A DNA stretch of 64,000 nt, taken from contig CAVPTI010000021.1 in the NCBI GenBank assembly GCA_963708775.1, positions 18,251-82,250 on the forward strand. Reading direction: 5' to 3'. This stretch comes from an uncultured Alphaproteobacteria bacterium (GTDB taxonomy: Bacteria; Pseudomonadota; Alphaproteobacteria; Rhizobiales; Hyphomicrobiaceae). A program made the position numbers and the translations under genes. The notes beneath the pieces are model-generated. The model saw nothing but the letters and a program-made list of their open reading frames with translations. It made no database searches and was not told the origin of the DNA. Below, piece by piece: positions 43,940-59,034 of the stretch. How positions within the stretch are numbered: position 1 is the first letter of the stretch; the number at the start of each line of letters is the position of its first letter.

Positions 43940-44175
43940 GTTGACTTATTTGCCGTCGATCGATAGACGTGGCAAGTCATTTCGCGACCCGATTGAAGAC
44001 GACTTTGCGCGGTGGTCCGCGCGTGCGCGCTCCCCGCCGCGGACTGCTGTCCGTCACGGCGGGTCCAGGCCCGCCGCCCCTGCATGCGCTGCAGAGTTTG
44101 CTTTATCGTCGCGCTGATGCGCGTGGCGCCGTCCGCCGTAAGTCATGCGCCGCCCGATAACAAGGAACGGAATTT

Positions 44176-45072: not shown

Positions 45073-45080
45073 GTCCAGGG

Positions 45081-45332
45081 TCAGTTGGATTTCGCGCTGA
45101 GCACGATAAAAAACGCGCCAAGGAAAGCCGCGATAGCGGAGCCCGCCAGCAGAAGCGCACTGAGATCCAGCGGGTAGCCGATCATCCCGGCCACTGCAGC
45201 GAAGAGAGCGATCCAGAAAATGGCTGGAACAAACGCTGTCAGCGCGAGACCGGTCAAAAAATCAGACCGGGAGGACGATGCAATTGCTTTTGTGGCGGGA
45301 ATACCCAGCGGCTGAGCAGTTGTCGTCTGCAT
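45081..45332 (-). CDS. Small membrane protein, hypothetical
   Basis: From MQTTTAQPLG it is ~83 aa with two hydrophobic helices (LALTAFVPAIFWIALFAAVAGMI and LLLAGSAIAAFLGAFFIVL). ORF-only evidence. Confidence 0.4.
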   Translation of the reverse strand: MQTTTAQPLGIPATKAIASSSRSDFLTGLALTAFVPAIFWIALFAAVAGMIGYPLDLSALLLAGSAIAAFLGAFFIVLSAKSN

Positions 45333-45559
45333 CGCTATCGCTCCGGAACAGCATCGATCGAGTACAAGTGTCGGGTCAACCCGTAAACGAAACGTTAACG
45401 AAGGCATTACGGAAAAATTAAGGAAACCTAAGAAATTTGACGAAGGCGTTTTCGTGCAACAGTCGATGTGCGAAAGGGTTTCGGTGTTTTTCTGATTATC
45501 GATAGGGGCTTGCGACGCGCCGGGGCGTCGCGCCCGAAGTCATAAAGGCAGGACAGACC

Positions 45560-47155
45560 GTGTATGATGTGGCGATTATCGGTGGCGGCCACAATGGTCT
45601 GACGGCTGCGGCGTACCTCTCGCGCGCTGGGCTTTCCGTGGTGGTTTTGGAAAAAAATGCGGTGGCGGGAGGTGCGGCGCTAACGGAGGCGTTTCATCCC
45701 GGCTTCCGCAACTCCGTCGCGTCCTACACTGTGAGCCTGCTCGATCCGGGCGTGATCCGGGATCTTGAACTGCATGACCATGGGTTGAAAATCATCGAGC
45801 GACCGGCCGCCAACTTCATGCCGATCGACCGCGAAAGAGCATTTTTCTGGCCTTACGGAATGGCCGCCAAGCAAGCAGAAATTGCAAAGTTTTCGGTGCG
45901 CGATGCGGAATGGTATCCGAAGTACGACGCGGCACTCGATCGAGCGGCCGCCGTGTTGCGCGATCTCACGAGGAAGACGCCTCCGAACGCAGGTGGCGGC
46001 TGGCTGGATGTCTTGAAGGGCGCGGGGATTGGCCGGCGCGTCCTCGGGCTATCGCTGGAAGACCAACGCGTACTTACCGATCTCTTCACGAAAAGTGCGG
46101 CGGACTTTCTCGACCCCTGGTTTGAGAACGAGCATGTGAAGGCGCTGTTCGCGTTCGATGGCATCGTCGGATCGTTTGCTGCGCCTTCGACGCCCGGTAC
46201 GGCCTACGTGCTGCTTCATCATTGCTTCGGAGAGGTGAATGGTAAGCCGGGCGTGTGGGGCCATGCCGTCGGTGGCATGGGCGCGATTACGCAGGCCATG
46301 GCGCGAGCAGCAGAGAAGGCTGGAGCAGAGATCAGACTTGAAGCTTCGGTCGCGCGGGTGGTCGTCGAAAAGGCCCGTGCCGTGGGAGTCGAACTTCAAT
46401 CTGGCGAGATTGTGCGGGCTCGAGCCGTTGCTGCGAATGTCGGACCCAAGCTCCTGTTCCGCGATCTTGTCGATGAGAAGGATGTTGATCCGCCGCTCTA
46501 CAGGCGGCTTTCGAACATCAAGACGGGGTCCGGCACGTTTCGCATGAACGTGGCCTTGAGCGAATTGCCAAACTTCACCGCTCGACCGGGTGCGGAGCCC
46601 AGCCCACACCACGGTGCAGGCATCGTGATCGCGCCGACGATGGCGTACATGGAGCGCGCCTACCTCGATGCGAAGCGTGACGGCTGGTCACACGAACCGG
46701 TCGTGGAGATGCTGATCCCCTCAGTGCTCGATGGGTCGCTGGCGCCGAAGGGTCAGCACGTCGCCTCTCTGTTCGTGCAGCACGTGGCGCCGAAACTGAC
46801 GGGTGGCCGATCATGGGACGATCAGCGCGAAAAAGAACGGTTCGCGGACGTCGTTATCGAAACCGTGACGAAGCATGCTCCAAACTTCCGTAGTTCGATC
46901 CTTGGCATGCAGGTGCTCTCGCCGCTCGATCTGGAGATGCGGTTCGGGCTCGTGGATGGCGACATCTTTCACGGCCAGCTGTCGCTCGATCAGCTGTTTT
47001 CGATGCGGCCGGTGCTCGGGTATGCCGATTACCGGATGCCGATTTCCGGGCTTTACCTATGCGGGTCGGGCGCTCATCCAGGCGGTGGGGTCACAGGATT
47101 GCCGGGCCGCAATGCCGCGCGCGAAATCGTGCGGGACCTCAAGGGGTGGTTTTGA
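45560..47155 (+). CDS. FAD-dependent oxidoreductase, phytoene-desaturase (CrtI)-related family
   Basis: N-terminal Rossmann motif DVAIIGGGHNGLTAAAYLSRAGLSVVVLE. Its 531-aa length and C-terminal LYLCGSGAHPGGGV are typical of COG1233-type enzymes. Confidence 0.8.
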   Translation: MYDVAIIGGGHNGLTAAAYLSRAGLSVVVLEKNAVAGGAALTEAFHPGFRNSVASYTVSLLDPGVIRDLELHDHGLKIIERPAANFMPIDRERAFFWPYGMAAKQAEIAKFSVRDAEWYPKYDAALDRAAAVLRDLTRKTPPNAGGGWLDVLKGAGIGRRVLGLSLEDQRVLTDLFTKSAADFLDPWFENEHVKALFAFDGIVGSFAAPSTPGTAYVLLHHCFGEVNGKPGVWGHAVGGMGAITQAMARAAEKAGAEIRLEASVARVVVEKARAVGVELQSGEIVRARAVAANVGPKLLFRDLVDEKDVDPPLYRRLSNIKTGSGTFRMNVALSELPNFTARPGAEPSPHHGAGIVIAPTMAYMERAYLDAKRDGWSHEPVVEMLIPSVLDGSLAPKGQHVASLFVQHVAPKLTGGRSWDDQREKERFADVVIETVTKHAPNFRSSILGMQVLSPLDLEMRFGLVDGDIFHGQLSLDQLFSMRPVLGYADYRMPISGLYLCGSGAHPGGGVTGLPGRNAAREIVRDLKGWF

Positions 47156-47191
47156 GTTGACGATGGCCGATCCGTTCGGCAATCGGAACGT

Positions 47192-47719
47192 ATGCACTCC
47201 ATCCCACAAATGATAGGATTGACGCCGCCCATGGACGCTCCCCGCTACCGCGCCCTCATGCGCCATCAGGCGGGAGCCGTTGCGATCATCGCGGCCGGCC
47301 ACTCCGGTGCGCGGGGGGGACTGACCGCGACGGCATTTTCTTCGCTTTCGGATAGTCCGCCGACGCTGCTCGTTTGCGTGCAGCGCAAGTCGGGAACGCA
47401 TGGGGTTATCGTTGCGGCGAAATCCTTCAGCGTGAACATCCTGGCACGCGAACAGCAAACGCTCGCGGAACGGTTTTCAGGTAAGGGCGGGGTGACGGGT
47501 GAGCACCGCTTCGAAGGCGGTGCGGTATGGGAGACGCTGGCAACGGGCGCGCCCGTTCTTTCAGGCGCGCTGGCAAGCCTCGATTGCGAACTCCTCGACG
47601 AGCATCAGTTCTCGACGCACTCGATCTTCATCGGTCGCGTGGTCGATGGACGGTTCCGTGGCGAAGGAGAGCCGCTGCTCTACTTCCGCAACGACTATTG
47701 GGATATCGGTGCGCGATAG
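47192..47719 (+). CDS. Flavin reductase-domain protein (HpaC-like)
   Basis: YRALMRHQAGAVAIIAA...GLTATAFSSLSDSPPTLLVCV...SFSVNIL...LDCEL...HSIFIG fits the flavin reductase-like FMN-binding domain. Confidence 0.75.
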   Translation: MHSIPQMIGLTPPMDAPRYRALMRHQAGAVAIIAAGHSGARGGLTATAFSSLSDSPPTLLVCVQRKSGTHGVIVAAKSFSVNILAREQQTLAERFSGKGGVTGEHRFEGGAVWETLATGAPVLSGALASLDCELLDEHQFSTHSIFIGRVVDGRFRGEGEPLLYFRNDYWDIGAR

Positions 47720-47749
47720 AGTGCCACGAACGGGCGAAAGACAACCAGC

Positions 47750-48166
47750 GTGCGGATCACAGTCAATCTTACGCTTGATGAGCGCGATATCGAGGAACGC
47801 TTCGTGCGCGCTTCGGGGCCGGGCGGGCAGAACGTCAACAAAGTCTCAACGGCAGTCGAGCTGCGTTACAACGTGCGGCACGGAACGCTGCCGGTCGCCG
47901 TGCGGGACCGGCTCGTCACGATTGCCGGCCGGCGGATGACGGACGAGGGCGTGCTCGTGATCCGCGCCGAGCGGTTTCGCACGCAAGAGCGCAATCGCGA
48001 AGACGCGCGGGAGCGGCTGGCAGAATTGGTGCGAAAGGCGCTGCATGTGCCGAAAAAGCGCATCGCAACAAAACCGACGCGGGCTGCGCGGACGCGGCGA
48101 TTGGAAGCCAAGGGCAAGCGCGGGGACGTCAAACGCATGCGCCGGTCCAAGCCCGATATGGATTGA
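47750..48166 (+). CDS. arfB: Alternative ribosome-rescue factor ArfB (peptidyl-tRNA hydrolase, GGQ)
   Basis: 138 aa with SGPGGQNVNKVSTAVELRY and a basic C-terminal tail (KKRIATKPTRAARTRRLEAKGKRGDVKRMR). Confidence 0.85.
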   Translation: MRITVNLTLDERDIEERFVRASGPGGQNVNKVSTAVELRYNVRHGTLPVAVRDRLVTIAGRRMTDEGVLVIRAERFRTQERNREDARERLAELVRKALHVPKKRIATKPTRAARTRRLEAKGKRGDVKRMRRSKPDMD

Positions 48167-48177
48167 GGAATCCGCCC

Positions 48178-48954
48178 ATGCCGCGTTTTGCCGCCAATCT
48201 CAGCATGCTCTTCACCGAAGTTCCGTTTCTCGACCGGTTCGAGGCGGCCGCAAAAGCTGGTTTCAAGGGTGTGGAATTCCTGTTTCCCTATGCGTTCGAT
48301 GTGGACGAAATCCGGGCGCGGCTCGATCGACTTGGTCTTGAGGTCGTGCTGTTCAATTTGCCGCCCGGCCATTGGGACGAAGGCGAGCGTGGCATCACGG
48401 CGCTGAAGGGCCGTGAGGATGAATTCGCGGCCGGAGTCGATTTGGCGCTGCGCTACGCGGAGGTGCTTGGCTGTCCTCGGCTTCATGCGATGGCAGGTCT
48501 CGACCCGCAAGTGACGGACCGCGATGTGTATTTGAAGAATTTGACGCTAGCGGCCGATTGGGCGCGCGGCGAGGGCGTTGATATTCTGATCGAGCCGATC
48601 AACACGTTTGATATGCCGGGCTATTTCCTGACGACGACAGAGGCAGCGCGTGACGTCATCGAAAAGGTGGGTGCGGCGAACCTCGGCCTGCAATTCGATC
48701 TCTATCATCGCCATCGCATGCAGGGTGGTGTTATCGAGGCGATCTCAGAATTCGCCCCCATCGCGCGGCATTATCAGTGCGCGAACCCGCCGGATCGCAG
48801 CGAACCGGGAGTGGACGTGCTCAACTATCGGCGCATTTTCGAAGCGATTGATCAGACTGGTTTCACGGGCTGGATCGGCTGTGAATACAAGCCGAAGGGG
48901 TCCACGCTGGAGGGACTCGAATGGCCTGAGCAATGCGGCGTCGCGCTGGGTTAA
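48178..48954 (+). CDS. hyi: Hydroxypyruvate isomerase-family TIM-barrel protein
   Basis: MPRFAANLSMLFTEVPFLDRFEAAAKAGFKGVEFLFPY..., ILIEPIN, QFDLYH and GWIGCEYKP are the Hyi/OtnI family pattern. The ORF overlaps the arfB stop. Confidence 0.8.
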   Translation: MPRFAANLSMLFTEVPFLDRFEAAAKAGFKGVEFLFPYAFDVDEIRARLDRLGLEVVLFNLPPGHWDEGERGITALKGREDEFAAGVDLALRYAEVLGCPRLHAMAGLDPQVTDRDVYLKNLTLAADWARGEGVDILIEPINTFDMPGYFLTTTEAARDVIEKVGAANLGLQFDLYHRHRMQGGVIEAISEFAPIARHYQCANPPDRSEPGVDVLNYRRIFEAIDQTGFTGWIGCEYKPKGSTLEGLEWPEQCGVALG

Positions 48955-49037
48955 TCTCGGCTGGGCGAAGACGGCTGCAGGTGGCATAATCCGAGCCAAC
49001 GGGGTCCTCGGCCTCGTCCTACGGGGGAAGACCACCG

Positions 49038-50063
49038 ATGGTCCGACGAATGTCACGGGATCGCCGTGCGTTTTTGAACGCGGCAGCTGCTGCTGTTGCT
49101 GCACCGTTTTTGTTGCGCTCGATGACCGTGGCGGCTTTGGCGCAGGATGCGCTACCCGGCACGGGTGCGGTGTCGCCGATCTGGGGGGAACTCGGTCGGC
49201 TGACGATCTCCGCCCAGAAGATGGGCCTCGCGGTGCCGCGTATGTCGCTCGGGCCTGAGAGTTTGACTGACGATTTCTCCACTACGATGCCGGCCATCGT
49301 CGATTTCATGGATAGCCTTGATGCTGCGATCGCATCGGCGCCCATCGAAAAGGCAGATGCGGCGGAAGATCTGAAGCAGGAGGCGAGCACGCTTCTGGGA
49401 AAGGTGCTCGCGGCGGAGAAGCTGCCGAGGGAGGCGACGGAGGAGCCTGGTCCGCCAGGGGCGGCGCCGACCGTGAAGGCGCCGAAGTTCGAGGATGTAG
49501 CGGAGGGCTATCGGGACCTGTTCCGTACGTGTGTGATCCGCACGGATATGACCTCGCAAGTGAAATGGTACACCGACAAGCTTGTCGATCCCGCGCGGCG
49601 CGAGCGCTATCAGAGGATCGAGGATGAGATCTGTGTTCCCTGGTATTTCGTCGGCATCATTCATGGGATGGAGTGCGGCTTTGACTTCAACAAGCATCTT
49701 CACAACGGCGATCCTTTAAAAGGGCGCACGGTGCAGGTGCCAAAAGGCAGGCCGCAGGTCTGGAATCCGCCGACGGATTGGCATTCGAGTGCGGTCGATG
49801 CGCTGCGTTACGACAAGTTCGCTGATCTCACGGATTGGGATCTGGCGCGGATGCTCTACCGCTGGGAAGCCTACAACGGTTGGCGCTCGCGGCTTCTCTA
49901 CAACATCAATACGCCGTACCTCTGGAGCTTTTCGAACCACTACACGAAGGGCAAGTTCGTCGCTGACAACGTGTGGGATGCGAACGCCGTTTCGAAGCAA
50001 TGCGGCGCGGCGGTGATGCTCAAGATGATCGTGGACGGCGGCGTCGTCGGCCAGCCGGCTTGA
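49038..50063 (+). CDS. TAT-exported hypothetical protein (possible muramidase-like C-terminal domain)
   Basis: Twin-arginine leader SRDRRAFLNAAAAAVAAPFLL. The C-terminal VPWYFVGIIHGMECGFDFNKHLHNGDPLKGRTVQVPKGRP...EAYNGWRSR resembles a family I vaguely recall as lysozyme-like. The functional call is weak. Confidence 0.5.
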   Translation: MVRRMSRDRRAFLNAAAAAVAAPFLLRSMTVAALAQDALPGTGAVSPIWGELGRLTISAQKMGLAVPRMSLGPESLTDDFSTTMPAIVDFMDSLDAAIASAPIEKADAAEDLKQEASTLLGKVLAAEKLPREATEEPGPPGAAPTVKAPKFEDVAEGYRDLFRTCVIRTDMTSQVKWYTDKLVDPARRERYQRIEDEICVPWYFVGIIHGMECGFDFNKHLHNGDPLKGRTVQVPKGRPQVWNPPTDWHSSAVDALRYDKFADLTDWDLARMLYRWEAYNGWRSRLLYNINTPYLWSFSNHYTKGKFVADNVWDANAVSKQCGAAVMLKMIVDGGVVGQPA

Positions 50064-50067
50064 AGAT

Positions 50068-51228
50068 TCAGGAACTGCCGTAAACGAGGCCGACAGCCTG
50101 CTGGGCGGCGAGGACTTGATCGCAGTCGCTTTCGGCGAAACCTGATCCTTTCTTCTGCGTGAGATCCAGACAGGATTGCAGGAAGCCTTCCGCCGCTTCG
50201 ACCAAGGTTGCGGTCTGGTTCAGGTTTGCCGTCATCGTGCGGTAGGTAAGGTGGGCGAGTTTTTGGCGGCCGAGCGGCTTCACCGTCGTGCCGCGATGTT
50301 CGCCGCCTTCGGAGATGAGATAGGCAAACTTGTTCAGAATGCCACTATTGAAGTGGACACATCCGTTGTCGTTCAGCCAGGTCGTGGCGCAGATCTGGTC
50401 GTCCGCCGTGACGACGTCACCATAGTGGTCAGGCTGGCCGCGGTTGCTGCTGGAGAAGGCTTGGGATCTGTCGAAGAGCGATGTGCCGTCCGGTGTCGAG
50501 AGATTTGGATTGGCAAGTGAGCGGAGTGGACGGTCCGGAGAATAGCCCGGCGCGCTTTCTCCGAGCAGCCAATTGGCGGAGCCGGACTTTGCGTAGAATT
50601 CGATGAGTGCGCCGAAGATGTCGGCGATGCTTTCGTTCACGGCGCCGGGCTCGTCGGAATAAATCAGGTTCGCCTCGTGCTGGATGATGCCGTGCACCAT
50701 TTCGTGCGCGACGATGTCGATTGCGCCGGCGTATCCGGGCCCAAAGACCATCACGTTCTGCTTCGGGCAATAGTACGATTTGGATGGGCACCAGTAGGCG
50801 TTGCGCACGGTACCGTAGCGGACGTAGCTCTCAAGAGGTGCACCGCCCTTGGGGCCGTCCTGATCGTTGTCGTCGTAGCTGTTGCGGCCGAAGACGAGGA
50901 AGAAGAAGTCACGCACAGCGCCGGTATAGCGGAAGGCCTGTTCAGCATCAGCCGGAAGTGACTGACCTTTGCCTTTTCCGTCTTCGTCGACGAGCGCAGC
51001 CGTATCGGCAGGGTTCGCATAATCGTAAATGCGGCGGATCAGTCCTGAGGGTTTGTCGCGGTAGAAGTGGAAGACCTCGCCCGACTTGGCATCGACGAAC
51101 AGGCGGAAGCTATCGATCGACACCAGCCACGCGAGGCGGGCACCGCCATCGACGTTGGCGCGCAGCAGGGCCGGGTCGAAGACCACGACTTCGGCGGTGG
51201 CCGGTGTGGTCTGAGGATTGGGCCCCAT
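50068..51228 (-). pseudogene. Thermolysin-family (M4) metallopeptidase catalytic region, probably the 3' part of the 51272-54121 frame
   Basis: HEXXH with downstream Glu (VAHEMVHGIIQHE...NESIADIFG), and the M4 C-domain motif NDNGCVHFNSGILNKFAYL. This frame stays open upstream of ATG 51228 (LAELLKGSSTGTAPPLP-MGPN...). There is no signal peptide or propeptide of its own. Confidence 0.75.
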
Positions 51229-51271
51229 GGGAAGGGGCGGTGCGGTGCCGGTGCTGGATCCTTTCAGCAGT

Positions 51272-54121
51272 TCAGCCAGCCGAGTTCCGGGCGGCGGCCG
51301 TGGCCGCGCTTTCAGCGATGTCGGGTGCGGTCTTGTCGACCTGGGCTGCCGATGTGGAGCCCTGATACTTGGTCACGCCGAGCGTGTTCTCGACCGTGAG
51401 ACGGGCGGAGGAGCCGAACACCTTCACGCCATTGACGCGCTGTTCGACGTTGGCGATGTAGCGGCCGGGGAAATCCGGATCCTTGCGACGGCCGATGTAT
51501 TTGAGTTCGGCTTTCTTGCCCTTTGCGGGAAGTGCCGCGGTGATGCCGCTGGTGTCGAGAAAGGTTTCGACGATGCGCCGGGTGTCGTCTTCCGACTGTT
51601 CCGCGGGGCGGGCGCCTGCCGCGAGTGACGTGGCGTCGGGTCTGAAGCCAGAGATGCTGCTCGGAAGGCCGGTGGCGGGATTGATGACGACCTTCAGATC
51701 CGGGTTGGCCTTCTTCAGGTCCTCTACGCCCTTGCTGACTTCGATGCGAACCTCTTCGGCCGGGGCACCTGCGACGGTGCTGTTATCGGTTACGGGACCT
51801 CCGGCGACAACGTCCGTGACGGCGCTGCTCGGCGCTTCAGGGGAAGCGGCAGGCACTTGTCCGCCGGAAGCGGGCAAGTTCAGCGCTGCGATGAGGCCGC
51901 CATCCCTCCGCCGGCACTTGACCGGCTGTTCGGAACTGCTGCCGGCGTCGGAGGCGACGAGGCTGTGTGCAATGCGGGCGCTGAGGCCGGTTTCTGTGAA
52001 CGCGGCTTTGAGTGCATCGGTTGTTGCGGTCCACGCAGTTTCGATCGGCGCGATGTCGGATTTGAGAGCGGGGATGCGCGCGGCCTTTGCTTCGCGGACG
52101 GAAGCCTGACCATCGCCGTTGAGATCGATGCGGGGAAAATGACACTCGTTGTCATCGATCAGCCCGTCGCCGTTCAGATCTTCGGTGAAAGCGGTCTCTG
52201 TTGCAGCCGCGGTCTCGATTGCGATGAGCGCGCGGGCAAAGAGCTTGACGTCGTCTGCATCGATCGTGCCGTTGCCATCGAGGTCGGCGAGACGCTTGCG
52301 CGCGCTTTCGGAAACCGATGCGGCTGCTGCAATCGCGTCGATGCGCGGCGCGTGGGAGTCACCCGTCACGCCACTCTCTTTCAACGCAGCGATGATTTCC
52401 TCGGGCGCTTTCTCCGGGGCAAGTTCGAACAAGAGGCCGGCGAGCGCGGCAACGTGCGGGGCAGCTTGTGACGTGCCCGAGCAGACGCCGAAGGGGGACG
52501 TGGTGCTGCCGAGCGTGCTCATGATGTCGACGCCGGGTGCGGAAACATGACCGCCCGTGTTCGAAAAGCCGGCACGATTGCCGTCACGACCGGTGGCTTC
52601 AACCACGATGATGTTGCGGACGGGTTCACCACTCGTCCAAGCATACGTGCCGGCCCAGGCGAATGGCGAGGCCCAGCGGGCTTCGAGCGGCTTATCGAGT
52701 CCCTCGCTGTCGTTGCCGGCGGCGACGACGAACAGCACTTCATTTTCAACGAGGCGAGCCATCGTGCGAATGACGCTCGCCTGATCGGCGATGTGCAGCT
52801 TCAGTCCCTCGACATCGTCGGGGTTGGCGTCACCGAGGACACCGCGCGCCACGAAGTTATAGGCCAGACTGACATTGAGGACGCGCAGATTGCCGCCCTG
52901 CTTCAAGTTGGTCGTGAGGTAGATCATCGTGTTCGACAACACATCGGAGAACAGCATGGCCTGGGCCTGCCAGCTGAGATCCGCATCGAGATTGTCGCGT
53001 TCGCCGATGAACTCGGCTGCGATCGCAACTGCTTCGAGGTTGGCGTCGGGAACGATGCCATCGATGCCGGGGGCCGCGGTCTGCTTGGCACCGATGATGC
53101 CGGCGACATGGGTGCCGTGGTTGGTTTCGCAGTCGGGGCGCACGAGTGGCGGACGATAGGCGCCGCGGGCCAGCGTGTACTTGACGTTGGCGTTCTCGGT
53201 GAAGCCGATGTCGATGATGCCGATTTTTGGACGCACCGCTTCTGGATTGGCGGCGCGATGGCGTTCGATCAGCGACCACATGGCCGGCATGCGAATAGCC
53301 TTGAGGCCCCAATTGCCATCGGGCGTGTCGCCCGGCTGCCAACGCCAAGCATAGGACTTGTCGCCGATCTTGATCTCGGCACCGGACGGTTTGGGCAGAG
53401 CTTTGGTACCGATGAGGCTATCGACGAATGCGGCGTCGACGGTGGGTTCCTTGCGAAGAGCCTGCACCAAGGGCGGATCGAGAATGCGGTTCAGCTTCTG
53501 ATCTGGGGCTGCGCCTTCCAGGCTGCGCGTTGGTTCAGACGGATTGTTCTGCTCGACGGTGATGACGCCGAGCGCGCCGATCACTTTCGTGATCTTCAAG
53601 TCGTATTTCTTTAGCAGCTCTTGGATCTGCTGTTCGGTTACGTCCGGTTTCAGCTGGATCATGTAGCTGTTCTTTTTCGCCACCGGCACACCCGACGGAG
53701 GTGTGGCGCTGCCGCCTGTTCTGATCACGAGCGAGGAGGCGGTGCCCGTTGCTGCGTCTGTGGCAGTGCCGCTCAAAGGTGCGGCTTGAGCCGGGAGAGG
53801 CGAACGGAAAATCGAAGAGGATTTTCCGCCCCAGACTTTCTTTTTGATGTTGTCGTACCAGCTGTCCGATGCGCCTTGGCGTTTGCGCTTCGACGCGCCG
53901 GGATCGGGCTTGACGTACTCAAAGTCGGTTTTGTTTTGCGCGGGTGGGGACGGCGATCGGCTGCCAGGTTGCGGAGCAGGTTTGGCCGCGCCATCGGGCT
54001 GGAACTTATCTTCCAGAATATTCTTCAGGCGATCATATTCGCCGGTCTGCGCCACGGCCGGCACCGCTGAGGCCATTGCGGAGAGCGCGGCCCCGATCAG
54101 GATCGTGGTGCGGATTTTCAT
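51272..54121 (-). pseudogene. Exported subtilase (S8) - DxDxDG Ca-binding repeats - M4-type FTP/PepSY propeptide region
   Basis: ATG 54121 gives signal MKIRTTILIGAALSAMASAVPAVA, followed by an I9-like propeptide (YMIQLKPDVTEQQIQELLKKY). The S8 triad sits in IGIIDIGF, HGTHVAGIIGA and GTSQAAPHVAALAGLL. Three loops follow: DLDGNGTIDADD, DLNGDGLIDDNE and DLNGDGQASVRE. The frame ends with FTP-like IVETFLDTSG...VEQRVNGVKVFGSSARLTV. Confidence 0.75.
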
Positions 54122-54149
54122 GTCAGGACCTCGTCGGACGCGACGTTGA

Positions 54150-55723
54150 TCAGCTGCGCCATTTGGACCACCAGTTCGAGACGCCATCCTTCATCCATTG
54201 CCACCAGCCCTGTTCAGCGTCGGGCGTTGGTGCGGGACTGGGCTGCGGCGCGGGTGCAGGCTCAGGTGCGGGTGCAGGCGTTGGCTGCGGCTCAGGTACT
54301 GGTGCCGGAGCAGGGGGGGCGGGAGAGGGCGCTGGGTCGGGCTGCGGGGTCGGCGCGGGGATTGGTTGCGGCTCCGGTTGCGGCTCCGGTGCAGGAGCAG
54401 GTGGAGCCGGCACGGGTTCCGGTGCAGGCACGGGTGCAGGTTCTGGTTCAGGAATTGGCGCGGGCGACGGTTCAGGCGCAGGTTCGGCGCAGGTGACGGT
54501 TCCGGCGCAGGGGCGGGTTCCGGTGCGGGCGCTGGTGCAGGTTCAGGAATTGGCGTGGGGGTAGGCGCTGGCGCGGGTGCCGGTGTGGGTTCGGGAGACG
54601 GTTGCGGTTGCGGCTCGGGCTGCGGTGCAGGCGGTGCAGCGCCGATCTCGTAATTCGCGTCGATGAGGAGCGTGCCATCGGCGCCAATGCCCGGATCGAG
54701 ACCTTTGTCGCGGCGAAGGGCGGCGACGAGCGAGGTGAAAACAGGGACGTAGGCCGTAACCGTTTTTGTGCCAGCCTTGATGGTTTGGCGCGCCTGAAAA
54801 TGCAGATGCAGGCTCGTGGACGGCGAACCGTTCATGTACTTCGAAACTTTGCCGAGCACTTGGCCCTGCTTTACCGTTTGCCCGGTCTTCACTTTGATCG
54901 AGCTGGGGTGCATGTGGAGGTAGTAGTAGTCGGTGCCGTCTTTGGCCTTTGAGCTGAACGGTCGTGTTCTTCGTGACGTTGGTGATGGTGCCGTCAGTGA
55001 CGGCGACAGCCTCCCACGTATTATCTTTGAACGTGGCGGGGCGGATGTCTTGGCCTTGATGACCGGCCCCTGATGGGCAGAGCGGCATCGCCCAGCCGCG
55101 GACTTCGCAATAGTTGTCGCGCTGCTGCATGGGATCGTAGTTGCGGCGGTCGCTTTCGCTGCCGCCGGGTGCGCCTTTGCCGCCCCAGCCACCGCCGCCG
55201 TAGCCCCAAATCTGCGAATTCATGTGCGGGAATTGGCCGTCGCCGAGTTTCAGCGGGAAGACGATGTCGGGCAGGTAGACGAAGCGATCGTTGGCGCGAC
55301 CGCGGCCGGCATCTTTCTCGAGGAGATTGCCGGGCGGGTGATAGGCGAACGGAGGTTTCGGAAGGTCCGGCGCGGGGCCGGGGGTGGGCGTCGGGAGTGG
55401 GGCTCGGCGTGGGTGCAGGTTCAGGTGCGAGCTGGCACTTGGCGAGTTGAATTCGGGCCTGCGTGCTCGTGCCGGATTGCGGTGGGCAGGCTGGTTGATC
55501 GGGGAAGCGCTGCTGCGACGGCAACGTGGGCGCATGGGCGCCGAGCCCCTGCAGCAATGCGTGGCTCATCAGATCGCGGCCTGCAAGTGCCATGCGCGCT
55601 GGCGCGCGATCGTTGGAAAGCGCGGGATAGGTCGCCAGGAGAGCGGCAACGGACAGTGCCGACGCCGCCAAGGAGACAAGCGGTGGCGCTTCCTCTGCGG
55701 CCTGCGGTTCGATGAAACGCCAC
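54150..55723 (-). pseudogene. M23-family metallopeptidase with Pro-rich repeat linker and Trp-rich C-terminal tail; needs at least 3 frame changes
   Basis: Joined frames give a hydrophobic leader (LVSLAASALSVAALLATYPAL), then GHQGQDIRPA...VTDGTITNV / KDGTDYYYLHMH...GQVLGKV...SLHLHFQ (M23 H-x3-D and HxH-type blocks). About 140 aa of (P-A/E/T/Q) repeats follow, then DAEQGWWQWMKDGVSNWWSKWRS and the stop at 54150. The stop is 28 nt before the S8 start. Confidence 0.7.
54221..54637 (-). repeat. Coding low-complexity repeat (PAPEP-type, ~140 codons)
   Basis: An imperfect CCN-GCN/GAR periodic repeat is visible directly. On the plus strand it reads GGTGCNGGNTCAGG..., which creates the Gly-rich shadow ORF 53944-54564. 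Confidence 0.9.
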
Positions 55724-55990
55724 GACGAATTCCCCCTGTCCGTCCCGATCGCGACCTAGGCGGCATCCGGTTCAGTCCTACAAAAACTATGCCCCAACGG
55801 GCGCGAGCCACGCAACGCGGGCCGGCCTAGGATCCCGATCTACCCCCCGAAAGAAGCGAGTTCAGAAAAGCCTTCTGTGCTGCTGTCAAACGCGCTGCCG
55901 CGGCCGGATCGGAAAGGATGCGATCGATGCGTGCTGCGAGATCCGCCGGCAACGCGTTCGGCAGCGCCGTCGCGGGTGGCGCAGTATCGG

Positions 55991-58243
55991 CTATGCTTCC
56001 GGCGCTGCGCCGGGAATGGGTTCGAGGCTTGCGAGAAATGCCGGGCCGATCCAGAGCTTCTTGGTCCAGTCGCCTTTGATGACGATATTGAAGAAGAGGT
56101 TCTGGACATCGATATTCTGATTGATCAGGCGGCGGGGTACGACAACGTTGCCGACGGAGCGCAGCGCTGCGGTGGGGCCGCGCATCGTGAGGTCCGGCGC
56201 GGACGTGACGGTTCCATTTTTGATCGTGTAGGTGGCCGTCAGGTTCTCGACCGGCGTATTGCGGGACGGCGTGTAGCCCCATCCTTTGTAGTTCCAGAGT
56301 TGGGCCACCATTTCGCCGATGTCCCAGCCGCGCAGCTGGCCCTTCGTCATTTCGATGCGGGCGTTGCCGTCGAGTGTGGTGACGAGTTCTGCCGGAGAGC
56401 GACCCGTCGCGCGCGTCGCAATATCGACCGTAGAGACACCTTTGAGCAGTGGCCTGCCGGACAACTCGGCGGTGATCGGTTCGGCATCGACGTTCTGTAA
56501 CTTCAGCGCGAGTGCTGCGTCCTGCGATGTTCCGCGCGCCTTGAGGCTCAGAGCGCCCGATCCGCTGCCTGCGCCGATGGCGATGCGATCGATGTTGGCG
56601 GAGAGTTCGCCGTTGTCGAGCATTGCTTTGACGCGTGCGTTGGCGAGCGGGAGCTGTCCGAACTTCACTTCGGGGATGGCCAGATCGAGGTCCAGATCGA
56701 CGGCGCGCAAGGCTTTGAGATCGATCGGCGCTGTGCTCCATGTGGATGGTGCGGGCGCGGCTTCGAGGGATGGCGGTGGCGTTCGAGCCGGTGCGGTCTC
56801 TAATGCTTCGAGTTCGGCGGACAGCACATCGAACGTCGTTTCGAAGCCTGCGTCGGATGGATCGCCATTCGCAGCCAACGATGGCGGTGCGGGCGGTGTA
56901 CGGCCGAGCAGAGCATCAAGGTCGATGCGCGAGATCTGGAGGTTGCCTGTGACGCGAGGCCGTGGCCCGCCAAGTGTGATGTCCCCGGTGAAGGCGCCGG
57001 TGCGGCCATCGGCATCGAATGCGGTCTCGGAGAAGGCGATTTTGCCTGGGCGGGCGTCCATCGTGCCGGAAAGTGAACCGGGACCTAAGGCTTCGATCGC
57101 GGGATGGCTGATCCCCAAGCGAGCGCCGATACGGCCGATCGAGTCCGTCTTTGCTGATACAGCGCCCGCGTAGCTTCGTTCAGAGCCGAGCGACACCGTT
57201 CCATCAATTTCGGCGGCAAGTCCCGGACCAGCGATCGCGCCTTTGAGCGCGGAAGGTTTGCCCGCGATGGCCTCGCGGAGGCTTGCGAGCGTCAGGTCAT
57301 AGGTGACGGGATGCATCGCGCAGGATGATCGATCCTGTCGCGCGGGATTTTGTTTGGGGATCGGTCGTGGCCTTGAGGGACTATCGCGCCGGCGGTCGCA
57401 GGGCACGCTCTCGCCGAATCCCAGCCACGTCGCGAGGTCGCGCGCGGACGGGCTTGTCGCATCGATTTCACCTGAGAGCATCGGCGTTTCACCAATGGCG
57501 CCTTCGCCGGCCAATTTTGCTTTCAGTATGCGGCTGTCGATAGAGAGCGCCAGCGGGGTCGCCCGTCCAGCAGCGGCGGCCGCTGCATCGGAAACGGCGA
57601 GATCGAATGTCAGCGGTTCCTTGTTGTAGGTGAATGTGCCGTTGGCGGCCGCGCCGCCGTACTGTGGATCGGCGGCGATGGAGGCGCTGACGGCATCGAG
57701 CCGCAGTTGGGTTGCGGTGCCTTCGTCGGTGTAGATGATCGTGCCGTTGCTGACCGTTGTAGGTGGCAGAGCGAAAGCCACCGGCACCGTAGGCTCGGCC
57801 ACTTGCGCCAGCTGCCAGTTTCCAGTGCCGCTGGCGGCGCGAACGAGATTGACCACGGGTGCGTCGAGTTCCAGTGAAACAATTTGCGGGTTGCGGTCGA
57901 TGATCGAGCGCAAGGGCACGCGCGCCGTGATTTTTCGGGATGCGAACGGTGATGATCCCGGCGCGCTGCCGGGGCGGCCGAGTTCGACGCCGGAGAGTTC
58001 GACAGTGACGATCTCGCGGATGTGGTAGCGCGAATTCGTGACCGTGAGTTCTCGTCCCGTTTGGTCGTGAATGGCCTTCTTCAAAAGCGAGGTGAAGAAG
58101 AATGCTGGCGGGGCAAAGAGAAGGCTTGCGGCAAGGCTGGCAATCAGCAGCAGGAAACCGGTGGCAATCCAGCCCCAGCGAATGCGGGCGTGTGTCTTGC
58201 GCTGGCGTGATTGTCGTTTCGCGTCATTTTTCCCCCACTGCAC
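55991..58243 (-). CDS. asmA: AsmA-family outer-membrane biogenesis protein
   Basis: 750-aa ORF with an N-terminal TM anchor (WGWIATGFLLLIASLAASLLFA), a long beta-rich repetitive body, and the AsmA C-terminal region (LDGNARIEMTKGQLRGWDIG...YTIKNGTVTS...LRSVGNVVVPRR...VIKGDW). The segment ~57300-57420 translates as Arg/Pro-rich and may hide compensating indels. Confidence 0.8.
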   Translation of the reverse strand: MQWGKNDAKRQSRQRKTHARIRWGWIATGFLLLIASLAASLLFAPPAFFFTSLLKKAIHDQTGRELTVTNSRYHIREIVTVELSGVELGRPGSAPGSSPFASRKITARVPLRSIIDRNPQIVSLELDAPVVNLVRAASGTGNWQLAQVAEPTVPVAFALPPTTVSNGTIIYTDEGTATQLRLDAVSASIAADPQYGGAAANGTFTYNKEPLTFDLAVSDAAAAAAGRATPLALSIDSRILKAKLAGEGAIGETPMLSGEIDATSPSARDLATWLGFGESVPCDRRRDSPSRPRPIPKQNPARQDRSSCAMHPVTYDLTLASLREAIAGKPSALKGAIAGPGLAAEIDGTVSLGSERSYAGAVSAKTDSIGRIGARLGISHPAIEALGPGSLSGTMDARPGKIAFSETAFDADGRTGAFTGDITLGGPRPRVTGNLQISRIDLDALLGRTPPAPPSLAANGDPSDAGFETTFDVLSAELEALETAPARTPPPSLEAAPAPSTWSTAPIDLKALRAVDLDLDLAIPEVKFGQLPLANARVKAMLDNGELSANIDRIAIGAGSGSGALSLKARGTSQDAALALKLQNVDAEPITAELSGRPLLKGVSTVDIATRATGRSPAELVTTLDGNARIEMTKGQLRGWDIGEMVAQLWNYKGWGYTPSRNTPVENLTATYTIKNGTVTSAPDLTMRGPTAALRSVGNVVVPRRLINQNIDVQNLFFNIVIKGDWTKKLWIGPAFLASLEPIPGAAPEA

Positions 58244-58400
58244 CCTAGCGCAGCCAAGACGCCACTGTCATGTCATCGGCGGAGAGGTGGCACATATCCG
58301 ACACACTCGCGGTGTTGCGCTGCTTGATGGTCAGCGTGGCAGGGCGCTAAGGTGGCGCGTGCAAGAATGGGGTAGGATTGTGCGACGGGTTCAATCCGGA

Positions 58401-59024
58401 ATGATTTTTGATTGCGGCTGTTTTTGTGGCCGCAGGCGTCTGTGCAGGCTGCGGAGCAACTGCTTGAGCGTGGACTGGTCGAATGCGGAATTGACCAACT
58501 TCGTGGCGGCGAAAAAAGAGGAGGCCGCGCGTGGGGCGGCGCCGGTTGCGCCCTCGCGGCTTGATAAGGTGAAACTTCCCGTGCTCGCGTTCGAAGGGGC
58601 ACCGGGCCTCGTGCAGAATTCTTTCCCCGGTCTTGGACCCCAGCCGATGGGCACGCGCGACATTCACACGGACGAGACGAACCCCGTCTGGTACCAAATC
58701 GTCGATACCTACGGAGATGTGACGGTGAGCGTTTCTGCAGATCTGCGCGTGCAGCATGCGTTCGGTGCGGATTATCCGATTTATCCCACATCCGGGCCGG
58801 GTGCCGCGCCGACGGCGGGGCCCGAGGTGTCGGTTTTTGACGAGAATGATGAACAAGGCATGGAAGGTTCGATCGCCGAATACACGGTGACGAAGTTCGG
58901 CGTCCCGTACACCGTGACGATCGAATGTACCGCGGCGACGAAGGCGCAGTGCCAGGATATCGCGCAAATTGCGAAGGACAGTGCGCTGTCTGAAGGTCAT
59001 TGCCGCGACGCCGCCAGAGTATAA
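58401..59024 (+). CDS. Hypothetical protein (probable lipoprotein after frame correction)
   Basis: Protein-like sequence runs from ~58470 (VDWSNAELTNFVAAKKEE...TVTIECTAATKAQCQDIAQIAK). A signal or lipobox-like LIAAVFVAAGVCAGCG is encoded at 58408-58460 in another frame, starting right after a T5 run (58405-58409). Confidence 0.4.
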   Translation: MIFDCGCFCGRRRLCRLRSNCLSVDWSNAELTNFVAAKKEEAARGAAPVAPSRLDKVKLPVLAFEGAPGLVQNSFPGLGPQPMGTRDIHTDETNPVWYQIVDTYGDVTVSVSADLRVQHAFGADYPIYPTSGPGAAPTAGPEVSVFDENDEQGMEGSIAEYTVTKFGVPYTVTIECTAATKAQCQDIAQIAKDSALSEGHCRDAARV

Positions 59025-59034
59025 TTCAACTAGC

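What the first reader, a model, noticed from the sequence alone, without database searches (positions are those of the whole stretch)
50068..54121. One frame joins an S8 subtilase, Ca-binding DxDxDG loops and an M4 thermolysin pro-enzyme: candidate ~1,350-aa dual protease
Seen directly: a single open frame (51272-54121) starts with a Sec signal and an I9-like propeptide. It contains a complete S8 triad (D in IGIIDIGF, H in HGTHVAGII, S in GTSQAAPHVA), followed by three dockerin/EF-hand-like loops (DLDGNGTIDADD, DLNGDGLIDDNE, DLNGDGQASVRE). After a ~150-aa Ala/Ser/Pro linker, the same frame runs into what looks like the FTP/PepSY propeptide of an M4 protease (IVETFLDTSG...VEQRVNGVKVFGSSARLTVENT). 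The M4 catalytic domain (HEMVH...ESIADIFG...CVHFNSGILNKFAYL) follows immediately in a different frame that is open across the junction (51228-51290). That domain has no signal peptide or propeptide of its own. The M4 unit is therefore split from its own propeptide only by one frame change, and the propeptide is physically fused to the S8 enzyme. Serine plus metallo dual proteases on one exported polypeptide are, to my knowledge, not a described architecture. A pro-M4 tethered to an S8 could be a self-activating cascade.
Basis: partly seen in the sequence, partly recalled or inferred. Interest (0 to 1): 0.7.

Follow-up and report, generated by a model that had tools for sequence, protein, structure and literature searches.

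The report
Fused subtilase–thermolysin secreted protease gene
This is a real, conserved Hyphomicrobium gene that joins a serine protease and a zinc protease in one exported 1,350-residue protein. In this window it is interrupted by a single extra base, which is most likely a sequencing error.

Summary
On the minus strand, an S8 subtilase frame (54121..51272) and an M4 thermolysin frame (open 51372..50068) overlap. One extra base among 51285-51288 separates them. Deleting it gives a 1,350-codon ORF.

The closest relative (P0001, 97% identity) is an intact protein of exactly 1,350 aa. 81 protein clusters and 36 species-level Hyphomicrobium loci carry the same single ORF. Across 78 sequences the S8 residues D304/H335/N470/S551 and the M4 residues HExxH, E1163 and H1256 are invariant.

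More distant Hyphomicrobiaceae, such as Filomicrobium, carry two adjacent genes instead: S8-dockerin, then an M4 pre-pro-enzyme with its own signal peptide. The fusion therefore came from a conserved gene pair. The M4 signal peptide was replaced by a disordered 41-108 aa linker.

Predicted structures support a subtilisin-type prodomain and an FTP/PepSY-type M4 propeptide.

The window has at least five frame breaks in four of about ten genes over 16 kb. The out-of-frame M4 part still shows 73 synonymous against 8 non-synonymous codon differences. A sequencing error is therefore the likeliest cause.

Reverse-order M4-S8 fusions exist in Bacillaceae. I found no literature on any of these. This is a new variant of known kinds, of moderate interest.

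The parts
50068..54121 (-). Whole S8-M4 fusion gene. It is 1,350 codons plus stop once one extra base at 51285-51288 is removed.
   Evidence: Deleting base 51288 gives an ORF with only the terminal stop. It is 97% identical over 100% of its length to the intact 1,350-aa P0001. The nucleotide alignment to L001 shows a single uncompensated extra base.
51285..51288 (-). Site of the single-base insertion (GGAA; one G or one A is extra). It shifts the frame between R945 and T946, inside the first helix of the PepSY-like part of the M4 propeptide.
   Evidence: L001, L002 and L010 all lack the base. ORF A then stops at TGA 51274..51272.
54047..54121 (-). Sec-type signal peptide (MKIRTTILIGAALSAMASAVPAVA/Q), residues 1-25.
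   Evidence: Read directly from the sequence. N-termini align across 78 homologues. A GAGG Shine-Dalgarno-like motif lies upstream. The cleavage site is inferred.
53693..54046 (-). N-terminal variable region, residues 26-143. It has one conserved helix (YDRLKNILEDKF, residues 28-39) and is otherwise predicted disordered.
   Evidence: AF2 model: pLDDT below 50 for residues 46-63 and 79-142, and 93 for block 31-40. L32 and L36 are invariant.
53417..53692 (-). Subtilisin-type (I9-like) N-terminal prodomain, residues ~144-235.
   Evidence: The model shows a beta-alpha-beta-beta-alpha-beta unit with pLDDT 89-97. The best Foldseek hits are unautoprocessed pro-subtilisin E (3whi, E 1e-15, 476 columns) and pro-Tk-subtilisin. 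There is no Pfam I9 hit.
52307..53380 (-). S8 subtilase catalytic domain, residues ~248-605. Catalytic codons: D304 at 53212-53210, H335 at 53119-53117, oxyanion N470 at 52714-52712, S551 at 52471-52469.
   Evidence: Pfam PF00082 E 2e-26. The four residues are invariant in 78 sequences. Foldseek matches subtilisins with TMt 0.7-0.78. Codons were checked.
51914..52306 (-). Dockerin-like Ca-binding module with three DxDxDG-type loops (D613-D624, D648-E659, D666-E677). It ends at invariant C736, which is the C-terminus of the S8 protein where the genes are separate.
   Evidence: Dockerin_1 is hit in 35 of 35 relatives (best E 2.3e-6), but the window copy scores E 1.3e-3, below the cut-off. Loop residues are invariant. 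Split-gene S8 proteins end ...PCQ*...PCR* or ...CTW*. Model pLDDT is about 90.
51740..51913 (-). Ala/Pro/Ser/Thr/Gly-rich linker, residues 737-794. It occupies the place of the old intergenic spacer plus the M4 signal peptide.
   Evidence: Its length varies from 41 to 108 aa in relatives, it is poorly conserved, and it has no hydrophobic core. pLDDT is below 50 in both models.
51061..51739 (-). M4 propeptide of FTP + PepSY type, residues ~795-1020. The C-terminal boundary is approximate.
   Evidence: It is homologous to the post-signal region of stand-alone M4 pre-pro-enzymes. In the AF2 model of P0021 this region has pLDDT 80-97. Foldseek matches the vibriolysin MCP-02 propeptide chain 3nqz_A/3nqy_A (E 1.4e-5, TMt 0.54-0.57), the fungalysin propeptide 4k90_B and the YpeB PepSY protein 5boi. 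Pfam FTP is hit weakly in 11 of 35 relatives.
50071..51060 (-). M4 thermolysin-like catalytic domain, residues ~1021-1350. H1139-E1140-xx-H1143 lies at 50706-50692, E1163 at 50634-50632, H1256 at 50355-50353. The stop codon is at 50068-50070.
   Evidence: Pfam PF01447 and PF02868. The profile matches thermolysin at E 1e-52. Foldseek matches thermolysin and neutral protease at E 1e-19 to 1e-20, TMt 0.72-0.75. Catalytic residues are invariant.

Best explanation
The locus encodes the Hyphomicrobium version of a conserved S8/M4 protease pair, fused into one secreted pre-pro-polyprotein of 1,350 residues.

Domain order: Sec signal peptide, variable N-terminal region, subtilisin-type prodomain, S8 catalytic domain, three-loop dockerin-like Ca module, disordered linker, FTP/PepSY-type propeptide, M4 catalytic domain.

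Shown:
- The fusion is real and conserved.
- It derives from two adjacent genes that are still separate in other Hyphomicrobiaceae.
- The M4 unit lost its own signal peptide.
- Both catalytic centres and both prodomains are retained.

Inferred:
- The single N-terminal signal peptide exports both enzymes together, one copy of each.
- Each unit folds with its own intramolecular-chaperone prodomain and removes it by autoprocessing, as in subtilisin and thermolysin-like proteases.
- The exposed linker is probably cut, releasing two enzymes that act together.
- They may act alongside the neighbouring M23 peptidase and the lysozyme-family protein.

In this window the gene is interrupted by one extra base at 51285-51288. 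This is most likely a consensus error of an indel-rich assembly, not biology.
For: Fusion real:
- P0001 is 1,350 aa, 97% identical over 100% of the query. 81 clusters of 1,233-1,498 aa carry S8 + M4 + M4_C.
- 36 intact single-ORF loci were found, including the cultured H. zavarzinii ATCC 27496 (L019) and Hyphomicrobium sp. LHD-15 (L017).

Both enzymes under selection:
- D304, H335, N470, S551, H1139, E1140, H1143, Y1154, E1163, D1167, D1251 and H1256, plus ten Cys, are invariant across 78 sequences down to 46% identity.

Origin from a gene pair:
- At least 16 loci (Filomicrobium and other Hyphomicrobiaceae) have S8-dockerin (~740 aa) followed by M4 (~600 aa) with its own signal peptide.
- All window-clade fusions form one clade in NJ trees of the M4 part.

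Linker:
- Variable in length and sequence, not hydrophobic, and predicted disordered.

Prodomains:
-.

Frameshift is probably an artefact:
- One window-unique base is absent from L001, L002 and L010.
- The same 16 kb holds 19 window-unique 1-nt insertions. Frame breaks also occur in the NosD-like, AsmA and M23 genes.
- The shifted M4 part has no internal stop. Against L001 it shows 73 synonymous and 8 non-synonymous codon differences.

Neighbourhood:
- M23 lies upstream in 57 loci and the 341-aa protein downstream in 50 loci.
Against: - No reads or quality values are available, so a genuine, very recent inactivating mutation in this strain cannot be excluded.
- Nothing here shows secretion beyond the periplasm, autoprocessing, linker cleavage or any activity.
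- The NJ trees have no support values.
- The I9, FTP and PepSY assignments rest on predicted structures and weak HMM hits, not on curated thresholds.
- The dockerin-like module has no identified partner.
- The functional link to the M23 and lysozyme-family neighbours is by synteny only.
Confidence: 0.8

Rival explanations
1. The frameshift is real. In this strain the fusion gene is a recent pseudogene. It would yield an exported S8-dockerin protein with a truncated FTP tail, and no functional M4 enzyme.
For: The extra base is in the sequence as given. An exact-pattern scan of metagenome contigs found no copy of this allele, with or without the base, so there is no independent correction. ORF B from its ATG lacks a signal peptide and most of the propeptide.
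Against: The downstream 405 codons have no stop, and their differences from L001 are 73 synonymous to 8 non-synonymous. Four of about ten genes in the same 16 kb are also frame-broken by window-unique single-base insertions, which is implausible for a free-living bacterium. All 36 intact relatives keep one ORF.
Confidence: 0.12
2. Programmed +1 ribosomal frameshifting joins the two frames. The M4 part would then be made only in a regulated fraction of translations.
For: The two frames overlap by about 100 nt with no stop in the second frame. The shift needed is a simple +1.
Against: None of about 70 orthologous loci has a frame change at this position. Frameshifted copies in L027, L044, L046 and L069 are broken at different places. 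There is no stop or other recognisable shift-prone codon at the site. The sequence differs from L001 on both sides of the site.
Confidence: 0.01
3. As written, these are two ordinary independent genes, an S8 gene and an M4 gene, as in Filomicrobium. The apparent continuity of frames would be a coincidence of high G+C content.
For: Distant relatives do have two genes with a stop and a second signal peptide.
Against: In the window, the S8 frame runs without a stop through the linker and 150 residues of M4 propeptide. ORF B has no signal peptide and starts inside the PepSY-like domain. The window sits inside the fused clade next to L002.
Confidence: 0.02
4. The fusion protein stays as one tethered bifunctional enzyme. 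The dockerin-like module would anchor it to a cell-surface or partner protein. Alternatively it is an obligatory cascade in which one protease removes the other's propeptide.
For: S8-M4 fusions arose repeatedly: the main Hyphomicrobium clade, probably L035/P0122 separately, and reverse-order fusions in Bacillaceae. The dockerin-like loops are invariant. From established knowledge, M4 proteases start activation cascades elsewhere: aureolysin activates SspA, and LasB activates the M23 protease LasA.
Against: Each unit keeps its own complete prodomain, which suffices for self-maturation in the characterised families. The linker is long, variable and disordered, which is typical of a cleavable spacer. 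No cohesin-like partner was looked for or found.
Confidence: 0.2

Closest known systems
Thermolysin-like (M4) pre-pro-enzymes, e.g. vibriolysin MCP-02 (PDB 3NQY/3NQZ), thermolysin, Bacillus cereus neutral protease
   Same: The catalytic domain shares the fold and all catalytic residues. The propeptide is an FTP + PepSY-type fold that matches the MCP-02 propeptide chain. It is expected to act as intramolecular chaperone and inhibitor and to be removed by autoprocessing (established knowledge for the family).
   Different: There is no signal peptide of its own. The pro-enzyme is attached through a disordered linker to the C-terminus of a complete subtilase. The propeptide is too diverged for Pfam FTP or PepSY at curated thresholds.
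Subtilisin-type (S8) pro-enzymes, e.g. pro-subtilisin E (3WHI), pro-Tk-subtilisin (2E1P)
   Same: D-H-S triad with oxyanion Asn, an N-terminal beta-alpha-beta prodomain, and best structural matches to unautoprocessed pro-subtilisins.
   Different: A ~120-residue disordered region sits between the signal peptide and the prodomain. A C-terminal three-loop dockerin-like module is followed by a second protease. The nearest NCBIfam similarity is only a weak mycosin-like hit.
Adjacent S8-dockerin and M4 genes of Filomicrobium and other Hyphomicrobiaceae (L058, L060, L061, L030, L049 and others)
   Same: Orthologous proteins (38-52% identity) in the same order and orientation. The neighbours are the same: M23 upstream and the lysozyme-family protein downstream.
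   Different: They have a stop codon after the conserved C-terminal Cys of the S8 protein. The M4 gene has its own start and signal peptide. In the window's clade these are replaced by a 41-108 aa linker.
Reverse-order M4-S8 fusion proteins of Bacillaceae (WP_052351512.1 Parageobacillus genomosp. 1, 1,349 aa; WP_098846032.1 Bacillus sp. AFS055030, 1,225 aa)
   Same: One polypeptide with a thermolysin-type and a subtilisin-type catalytic domain.
   Different: The order is opposite: FTP-PepSY-M4-M4_C, then S8. The accessory domains differ (Big_6, MAM-like), the phylum is unrelated and the origin is independent. These too are annotated only as bacillolysin or M4 peptidase.
Secreted protease activation cascades (S. 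aureus aureolysin to SspA to SspB; P. aeruginosa LasB to LasA, an M23 protease). Cited from established knowledge, not tested here.
   Same: An M4 protease works with a serine protease and/or an M23 peptidase encoded nearby. An M23 gene is a conserved upstream neighbour here.
   Different: Those are separate proteins with demonstrated trans-activation. Here the partners are covalently fused, and no activation relationship has been shown.

Membership tests
Peptidase family S8 (subtilases) | Sequence match to the family model above the curated threshold | tested here: met
   PF00082 scores 93.4 bits against a cut-off of 21.8, E 2e-26. All 35 relatives tested match.
Peptidase family S8 (subtilases) | Catalytic triad in the order Asp-His-Ser, plus the oxyanion-hole Asn | tested here: met
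   D304, H335, S551 and N470 are present in the window and invariant in 78 sequences.
Peptidase family S8 (subtilases) | Subtilisin alpha/beta fold | tested here: met
   The AF2 model has pLDDT 89-98 over the domain. Foldseek matches subtilisins with E 1e-13 to 1e-15 and TMt up to 0.78. This is a predicted structure, not a solved one.
Peptidase family S8 (subtilases) | Proteolytic activity | not testable with these tools
   Needs expression and an enzyme assay.
Peptidase family M4 (thermolysin-like) | Sequence match to both family models above curated thresholds | tested here: met
   PF01447 scores 39 bits (cut-off 22.4). PF02868 scores 114 bits (cut-off 24.4). The family profile matches thermolysin at E 1.3e-52.
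Peptidase family M4 (thermolysin-like) | HExxH plus a downstream Glu (NExxxD) as zinc ligands, and the catalytic His/Tyr/Asp equivalent to thermolysin H231/Y157/D226 | tested here: met
   H1139, E1140, H1143, E1163, D1167, Y1154, D1251 and H1256 are invariant. Codons were checked.
Peptidase family M4 (thermolysin-like) | Two-lobed thermolysin fold | tested here: met
   Model of the 66%-identical P0021: Foldseek matches neutral protease and thermolysin at E 8e-20 to 1e-18, TMt 0.72-0.75.
Peptidase family M4 (thermolysin-like) | N-terminal FTP/PepSY propeptide | tested here: inconclusive
   No Pfam hit in the window pieces. FTP is hit in 11 of 35 relatives with best E 0.0095, and PepSY in none. 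The predicted fold matches the MCP-02 propeptide chain (E 1.4e-5, TMt 0.54-0.57), the fungalysin propeptide and the YpeB PepSY protein. The region is homologous to the pro-region of stand-alone M4 precursors.
Inhibitor_I9 (subtilisin propeptide) | Match to PF05922 | tested here: not met
   No hit in the window or in 35 relatives. One relative gives a weak Fervidolysin_NPro-like hit.
Inhibitor_I9 (subtilisin propeptide) | Beta-alpha-beta-beta-alpha-beta prodomain immediately upstream of the catalytic domain | tested here: met
   The model shows it at residues 145-233 with pLDDT 89-97. The top Foldseek hits are unautoprocessed pro-subtilisins, with alignments longer than the catalytic domain. 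It works like an I9 prodomain. Membership by sequence is not shown.
Dockerin type I | Match to PF00404 above the curated threshold | tested here: inconclusive
   The window copy scores 19.3 bits against a cut-off of 22.9. All 35 relatives hit at E <= 0.05, the best at 2.3e-6.
Dockerin type I | Paired Ca-binding loop-helix repeats | tested here: met
   There are three DxDxDG-type loops with invariant D613, G618, D624, D648, N650, D652, N658, E659, D666, G669 and G671. A canonical dockerin has two loops, not three.
Dockerin type I | A cohesin partner | not tested
   No cohesin search was made.
Programmed ribosomal frameshift site | The frame change and shift-prone motif are conserved in orthologues | tested here: not met
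   L001, L002, L010 and all other intact loci have one continuous frame at this position.

The most novel reading that the evidence does not exclude
S8 and M4 secreted proteases may form an obligate functional partnership, through mutual or one-way zymogen activation or through co-degradation of one substrate class.

The partnership would be strong enough to be fixed by gene fusion several times independently: once at the base of Hyphomicrobium, probably once more in another Hyphomicrobiaceae lineage (L035), and in the opposite order in Bacillaceae.

In Hyphomicrobiaceae the pair would belong to a conserved four-gene lytic module (M23 peptidase, S8, M4, lysozyme-family protein). That module might be used for bacteriolysis or for remodelling the wall of the budding hypha.
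Probability: 0.25. Interest if true: 0.55.

Novelty: new variant of a known kind. Interest (0 to 1): 0.38.

Why it matters
Both halves are textbook enzyme families. What is unusual is that they are covalently joined, and that unfused relatives still exist to show how the join was made.

A 'Rosetta-stone' fusion of this kind predicts that the separate S8 and M4 proteases of other bacteria cooperate. It also offers a natural system for asking how two zymogens with different prodomains are exported and matured from one chain.

A cultured strain, H. zavarzinii ATCC 27496, carries an intact copy, so this can be tested.

Current annotation names these proteins only 'M4 family metallopeptidase' and so hides the serine protease half.

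For this window specifically, the main practical message is that the assembly contains many single-base insertion errors. Apparent split genes in it should not be over-interpreted.

Tried and rejected
- Pfam and NCBIfam on the two window ORFs gave no FTP, PepSY or I9 hit. I turned to relatives and predicted structures instead.
- The family profile against PDB sequences aligned only the catalytic domains. It did not align the propeptide of full-length thermolysin 5a3y.
- Programmed frameshifting was rejected because no orthologue shares the shift.
- 'Two ordinary genes' was rejected for this clade, although it is true for distant relatives.
- An exact-pattern scan of metagenome contigs for the frameshift site, allowing the base to be present or absent, gave 0 hits.
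- An exact look-up of the window's 341-aa neighbour, meant to identify the source assembly, found nothing on record.
- Six literature searches on S8/M4 fusions, dual proteases, Hyphomicrobium proteases and compound peptidases found nothing relevant. The library is open-access only, so absence is weak evidence.
- Pfam, NCBIfam and PDB sequence searches on the 341-aa neighbour gave no hits. Only JGI's name 'lysozyme family protein' on homologues is available.
- I could not model the full 1,350-aa chain because of the 1,200-aa limit. The relative arrangement of the two enzymes is therefore unknown.

Full report
**1. Observation**

On the minus strand, the ORF listing gives a 971-codon ORF at 51272..54187 and a 386-codon ORF at 50068..51228. 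The second frame is open upstream to 51372, so the two frames overlap by about 100 nt.

Pfam finds these domains:
- Peptidase_S8 in the first ORF (E 2e-26).
- Peptidase_M4 (E 1.4e-9) and Peptidase_M4_C (E 8.6e-33) in the second.
- Weak Dockerin_1 and EF-hand hits after the S8 domain.

The start used by relatives is ATG 54121 (MKIRTT...), which has GAGG 9-12 nt upstream. No FTP, PepSY or I9 model hits either window piece.

**2. The fusion is real**

I joined the frames at ...AATAAAR|TRLAELLKG..., which gives 1,350 aa, and searched with that sequence. The search returned 81 clusters of 1,233-1,498 aa that carry PF00082 + PF01447 + PF02868 in one protein, at 45-97% identity and about 100% coverage. 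The best hit, P0001, is exactly 1,350 aa and 97% identical. Where named, these proteins are called 'M4 family metallopeptidase [Hyphomicrobium sp.]'.

A scan of one genome per species found 70 loci, all Hyphomicrobiaceae apart from a few vaguely labelled MAGs. In 36 of them one stop-free frame carries both enzymes. These include the cultured H. zavarzinii ATCC 27496 and Hyphomicrobium sp. LHD-15.

**3. Nature of the break in the window**

The window gene was aligned to L001, the gene encoding P0001 (94% nucleotide identity). The alignment shows one uncompensated extra base at about 51288, plus a compensated -1/+1 pair at 53808/53795. From the sequence, the extra base is one of GGAA at 51285-51288. 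Removing it gives 1,350 codons with only the terminal stop.

The 405 codons downstream of the break differ from L001 at 73 synonymous and 8 non-synonymous codons. That frame has therefore been under purifying selection until now.

A four-way alignment of 16 kb (window 44068-60121 against L001, L002 and L010) shows 19 single-base insertions unique to the window. A tblastn of the neighbours' proteins shows frame changes in the window's NosD-like, AsmA and M23 genes as well (two changes in M23). That makes at least five frame breaks in four of about ten genes.

This density is implausible for a living genome and is typical of an unpolished consensus. I therefore read the frameshift as a sequencing or assembly error (about 0.85), with a recent real mutation as the alternative. 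Programmed frameshifting is excluded because no orthologue has the shift, and other frame-broken copies (L027, L044, L046, L069) are broken elsewhere.

**4. Both enzymes are maintained**

The alignment covers 78 full-length sequences, down to 46% identity. The following are invariant:
- S8 residues D304, H335, N470 and S551.
- M4 residues H1139, E1140, H1143, Y1154, E1163, D1167, D1251 and H1256.
- Ten cysteines.
- The Asp/Asn/Gly positions of three Ca-type loops (613-624, 648-659, 666-677).

**5. Origin**

In more distant Hyphomicrobiaceae (Filomicrobium and unnamed MAGs, 38-52% identity) the same two proteins are encoded by adjacent genes. The S8-dockerin protein (~740 aa) ends one to three residues (eight in L049) after a conserved Cys (...PCQ*...PCR*...CTW*). 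An M4 gene (~600 aa) follows, with its own signal peptide, for example MVKTITAAIAILSTTYVIWSLPANAQ in L058.

That conserved Cys is C736 of the fusion. It is followed there by an Ala/Pro/Ser/Thr/Gly-rich stretch of 41-108 aa with no hydrophobic core.

In NJ trees of the M4 part, all fusions of the window's type form one clade. The split locus L049 is their sister, and the other split loci lie outside. One further fused locus (L035 = P0122/P0262) has a short, Cys-less junction. It branches outside this clade, which suggests a second fusion. The trees are rough and carry no support values.

Stand-alone M4 precursors match the fusion from about residue 790 to the end. This shows that residues ~795-1020 are the pro-region of an M4 pre-pro-enzyme.

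**6. Structure predictions**

Window ORF A (949 aa, 100-sequence alignment, mean pLDDT 79.8) shows:
- residues 1-25: signal peptide
- residues 28-39: conserved helix
- residues 46-142: disordered
- residues 145-233: compact beta-alpha-beta prodomain
- residues ~248-605: S8 domain
- up to ~720: well-defined dockerin-like module
- residues 750-785: disordered linker
- residues 789-946: folded FTP-like unit

Its best PDB matches are unautoprocessed pro-subtilisin E (3whi, E 1e-15) and pro-Tk-subtilisin, ahead of mature subtilisins.

The model of P0021 (66% identical, 1,004 aa, pLDDT 78.2) shows the same disordered linker and a well-folded propeptide. In window numbering this propeptide covers about 789-1030. 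Foldseek matches are:
- thermolysin and neutral protease: E ~1e-19
- propeptide chain of autoprocessed vibriolysin MCP-02 (3nqz_A, 3nqy_A): E 1.4e-5, TMt 0.54-0.57
- fungalysin propeptide 4k90_B
- PepSY protein YpeB (5boi)

The FTP/PepSY and I9-like assignments are therefore supported by fold. By sequence they are weak: Pfam FTP in 11 of 35 relatives with best E 0.0095, PepSY in none, I9 in none.

**7. Context**

An M23 peptidase gene lies upstream on the same strand in 57 loci. A 341-aa protein with a twin-arginine-like signal lies downstream in 50 loci. Both neighbours occur in fused and in split arrangements. The 341-aa protein has no Pfam, NCBIfam or PDB sequence match, but JGI names its homologues 'lysozyme family protein'. 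The neighbourhood therefore looks like a module for cell-wall or protein lysis. This rests on synteny only.

**8. Mechanism (inferred)**

The proposed mechanism has these steps:
- One signal peptide exports a pre-pro-S8-dockerin-linker-pro-M4 chain.
- Each unit uses its own prodomain as folding chaperone and inhibitor, and removes it autocatalytically, as established for subtilisins and thermolysin-like proteases.
- The exposed linker is probably cut, which releases two enzymes in equal amounts.

A tethered bifunctional enzyme, or a trans-activation cascade, cannot be excluded. From established knowledge, M4 enzymes start such cascades in S. aureus (aureolysin to SspA) and in P. aeruginosa (LasB to the M23 protease LasA).

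**9. Comparison and novelty**

Both domains pass the membership tests for S8 and M4.

The combination is not unique to this clade. Reverse-order FTP-PepSY-M4-M4_C...S8 proteins occur in Parageobacillus genomosp. 1 (WP_052351512.1, 1,349 aa) and Bacillus sp. AFS055030 (WP_098846032.1, 1,225 aa). They also occur in two unnamed metagenomic proteins.

Six full-text searches found no paper describing any S8/M4 fusion.

I rate this a new variant of known kinds. It is a recurrent, conserved but apparently uncharacterised dual-protease architecture with a clear evolutionary origin. Interest is moderate (0.38). In this window the split is most likely an artefact.

Noticed in passing
window 49038-50063 (+): A 341-aa protein with a twin-arginine-like signal (MSRDRRAFLNAAAAAVAAPFLL) has no Pfam, NCBIfam or PDB sequence match. 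It is nevertheless conserved immediately downstream of the S8-M4 gene (or of the split M4 gene) in 50 of 70 Hyphomicrobiaceae loci. JGI names homologues 'lysozyme family protein'.
   Followed up: partly
window ~54191-55723 (-): The upstream M23 peptidase gene is a conserved neighbour in 57 loci. It carries a long Pro/Ala/Glu-rich (PAPAPEP-type) repeat. In the window it is split over three reading frames by single-base insertions near 55400 and 54950.
   Followed up: partly
window 44068-60121: There are 19 single-base insertions unique to the window, against only 4 single-base deletions, relative to three close relatives. Many are not in homopolymers. Frame breaks also occur in the NosD-like gene (~59937) and at the AsmA C-terminus (~55995). 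The window looks like an insertion-biased, unpolished consensus, so other 'split genes' in it deserve suspicion.
   Followed up: partly
window 53795-53808, 57311-57400 and 58409-58467: Some indels cluster and restore the frame. There is a -1/+1 pair 13 nt apart in the N-terminal variable region of S8-M4. There are three +1 insertions within 90 nt of the AsmA gene (57400, 57380, 57311), and another three at 58467/58440/58409. Random errors would not be expected to compensate so neatly. These could be real compensated changes or alignment artefacts in diverged segments.
   Followed up: no
P0227, P0214, P0211, P0114 (not in the window): Independent fusions in the opposite order (FTP-PepSY-M4-M4_C ... 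S8) occur in Parageobacillus genomosp. 1 (WP_052351512.1), Bacillus sp. AFS055030 (WP_098846032.1) and two unnamed metagenomic proteins. Where annotated, they are named only as bacillolysin or M4 peptidase.
   Followed up: partly
L035:308-4282 (= P0122/P0262): A Hyphomicrobiaceae MAG has a fused S8-M4 ORF with a short junction that lacks the conserved Cys. It branches outside the main fused clade in an NJ tree, so it is probably a second, independent fusion within the family.
   Followed up: partly
L009 and L071 (JBLMYE01, labelled 'Deltaproteobacteria bacterium MAG237'): These contigs carry the Hyphomicrobium-type fusion gene at 80-90% protein identity, with the same neighbours. The bin's taxonomic label is probably wrong, or the contigs are mis-binned.
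   Followed up: no
L030, L032, L038, L041 (split loci): In several split loci the M4 reading frame continues in the same frame directly after the single stop codon of the S8 gene. One stop-codon substitution would then suffice to fuse them. This offers a simple route for the fusion event.
   Followed up: no
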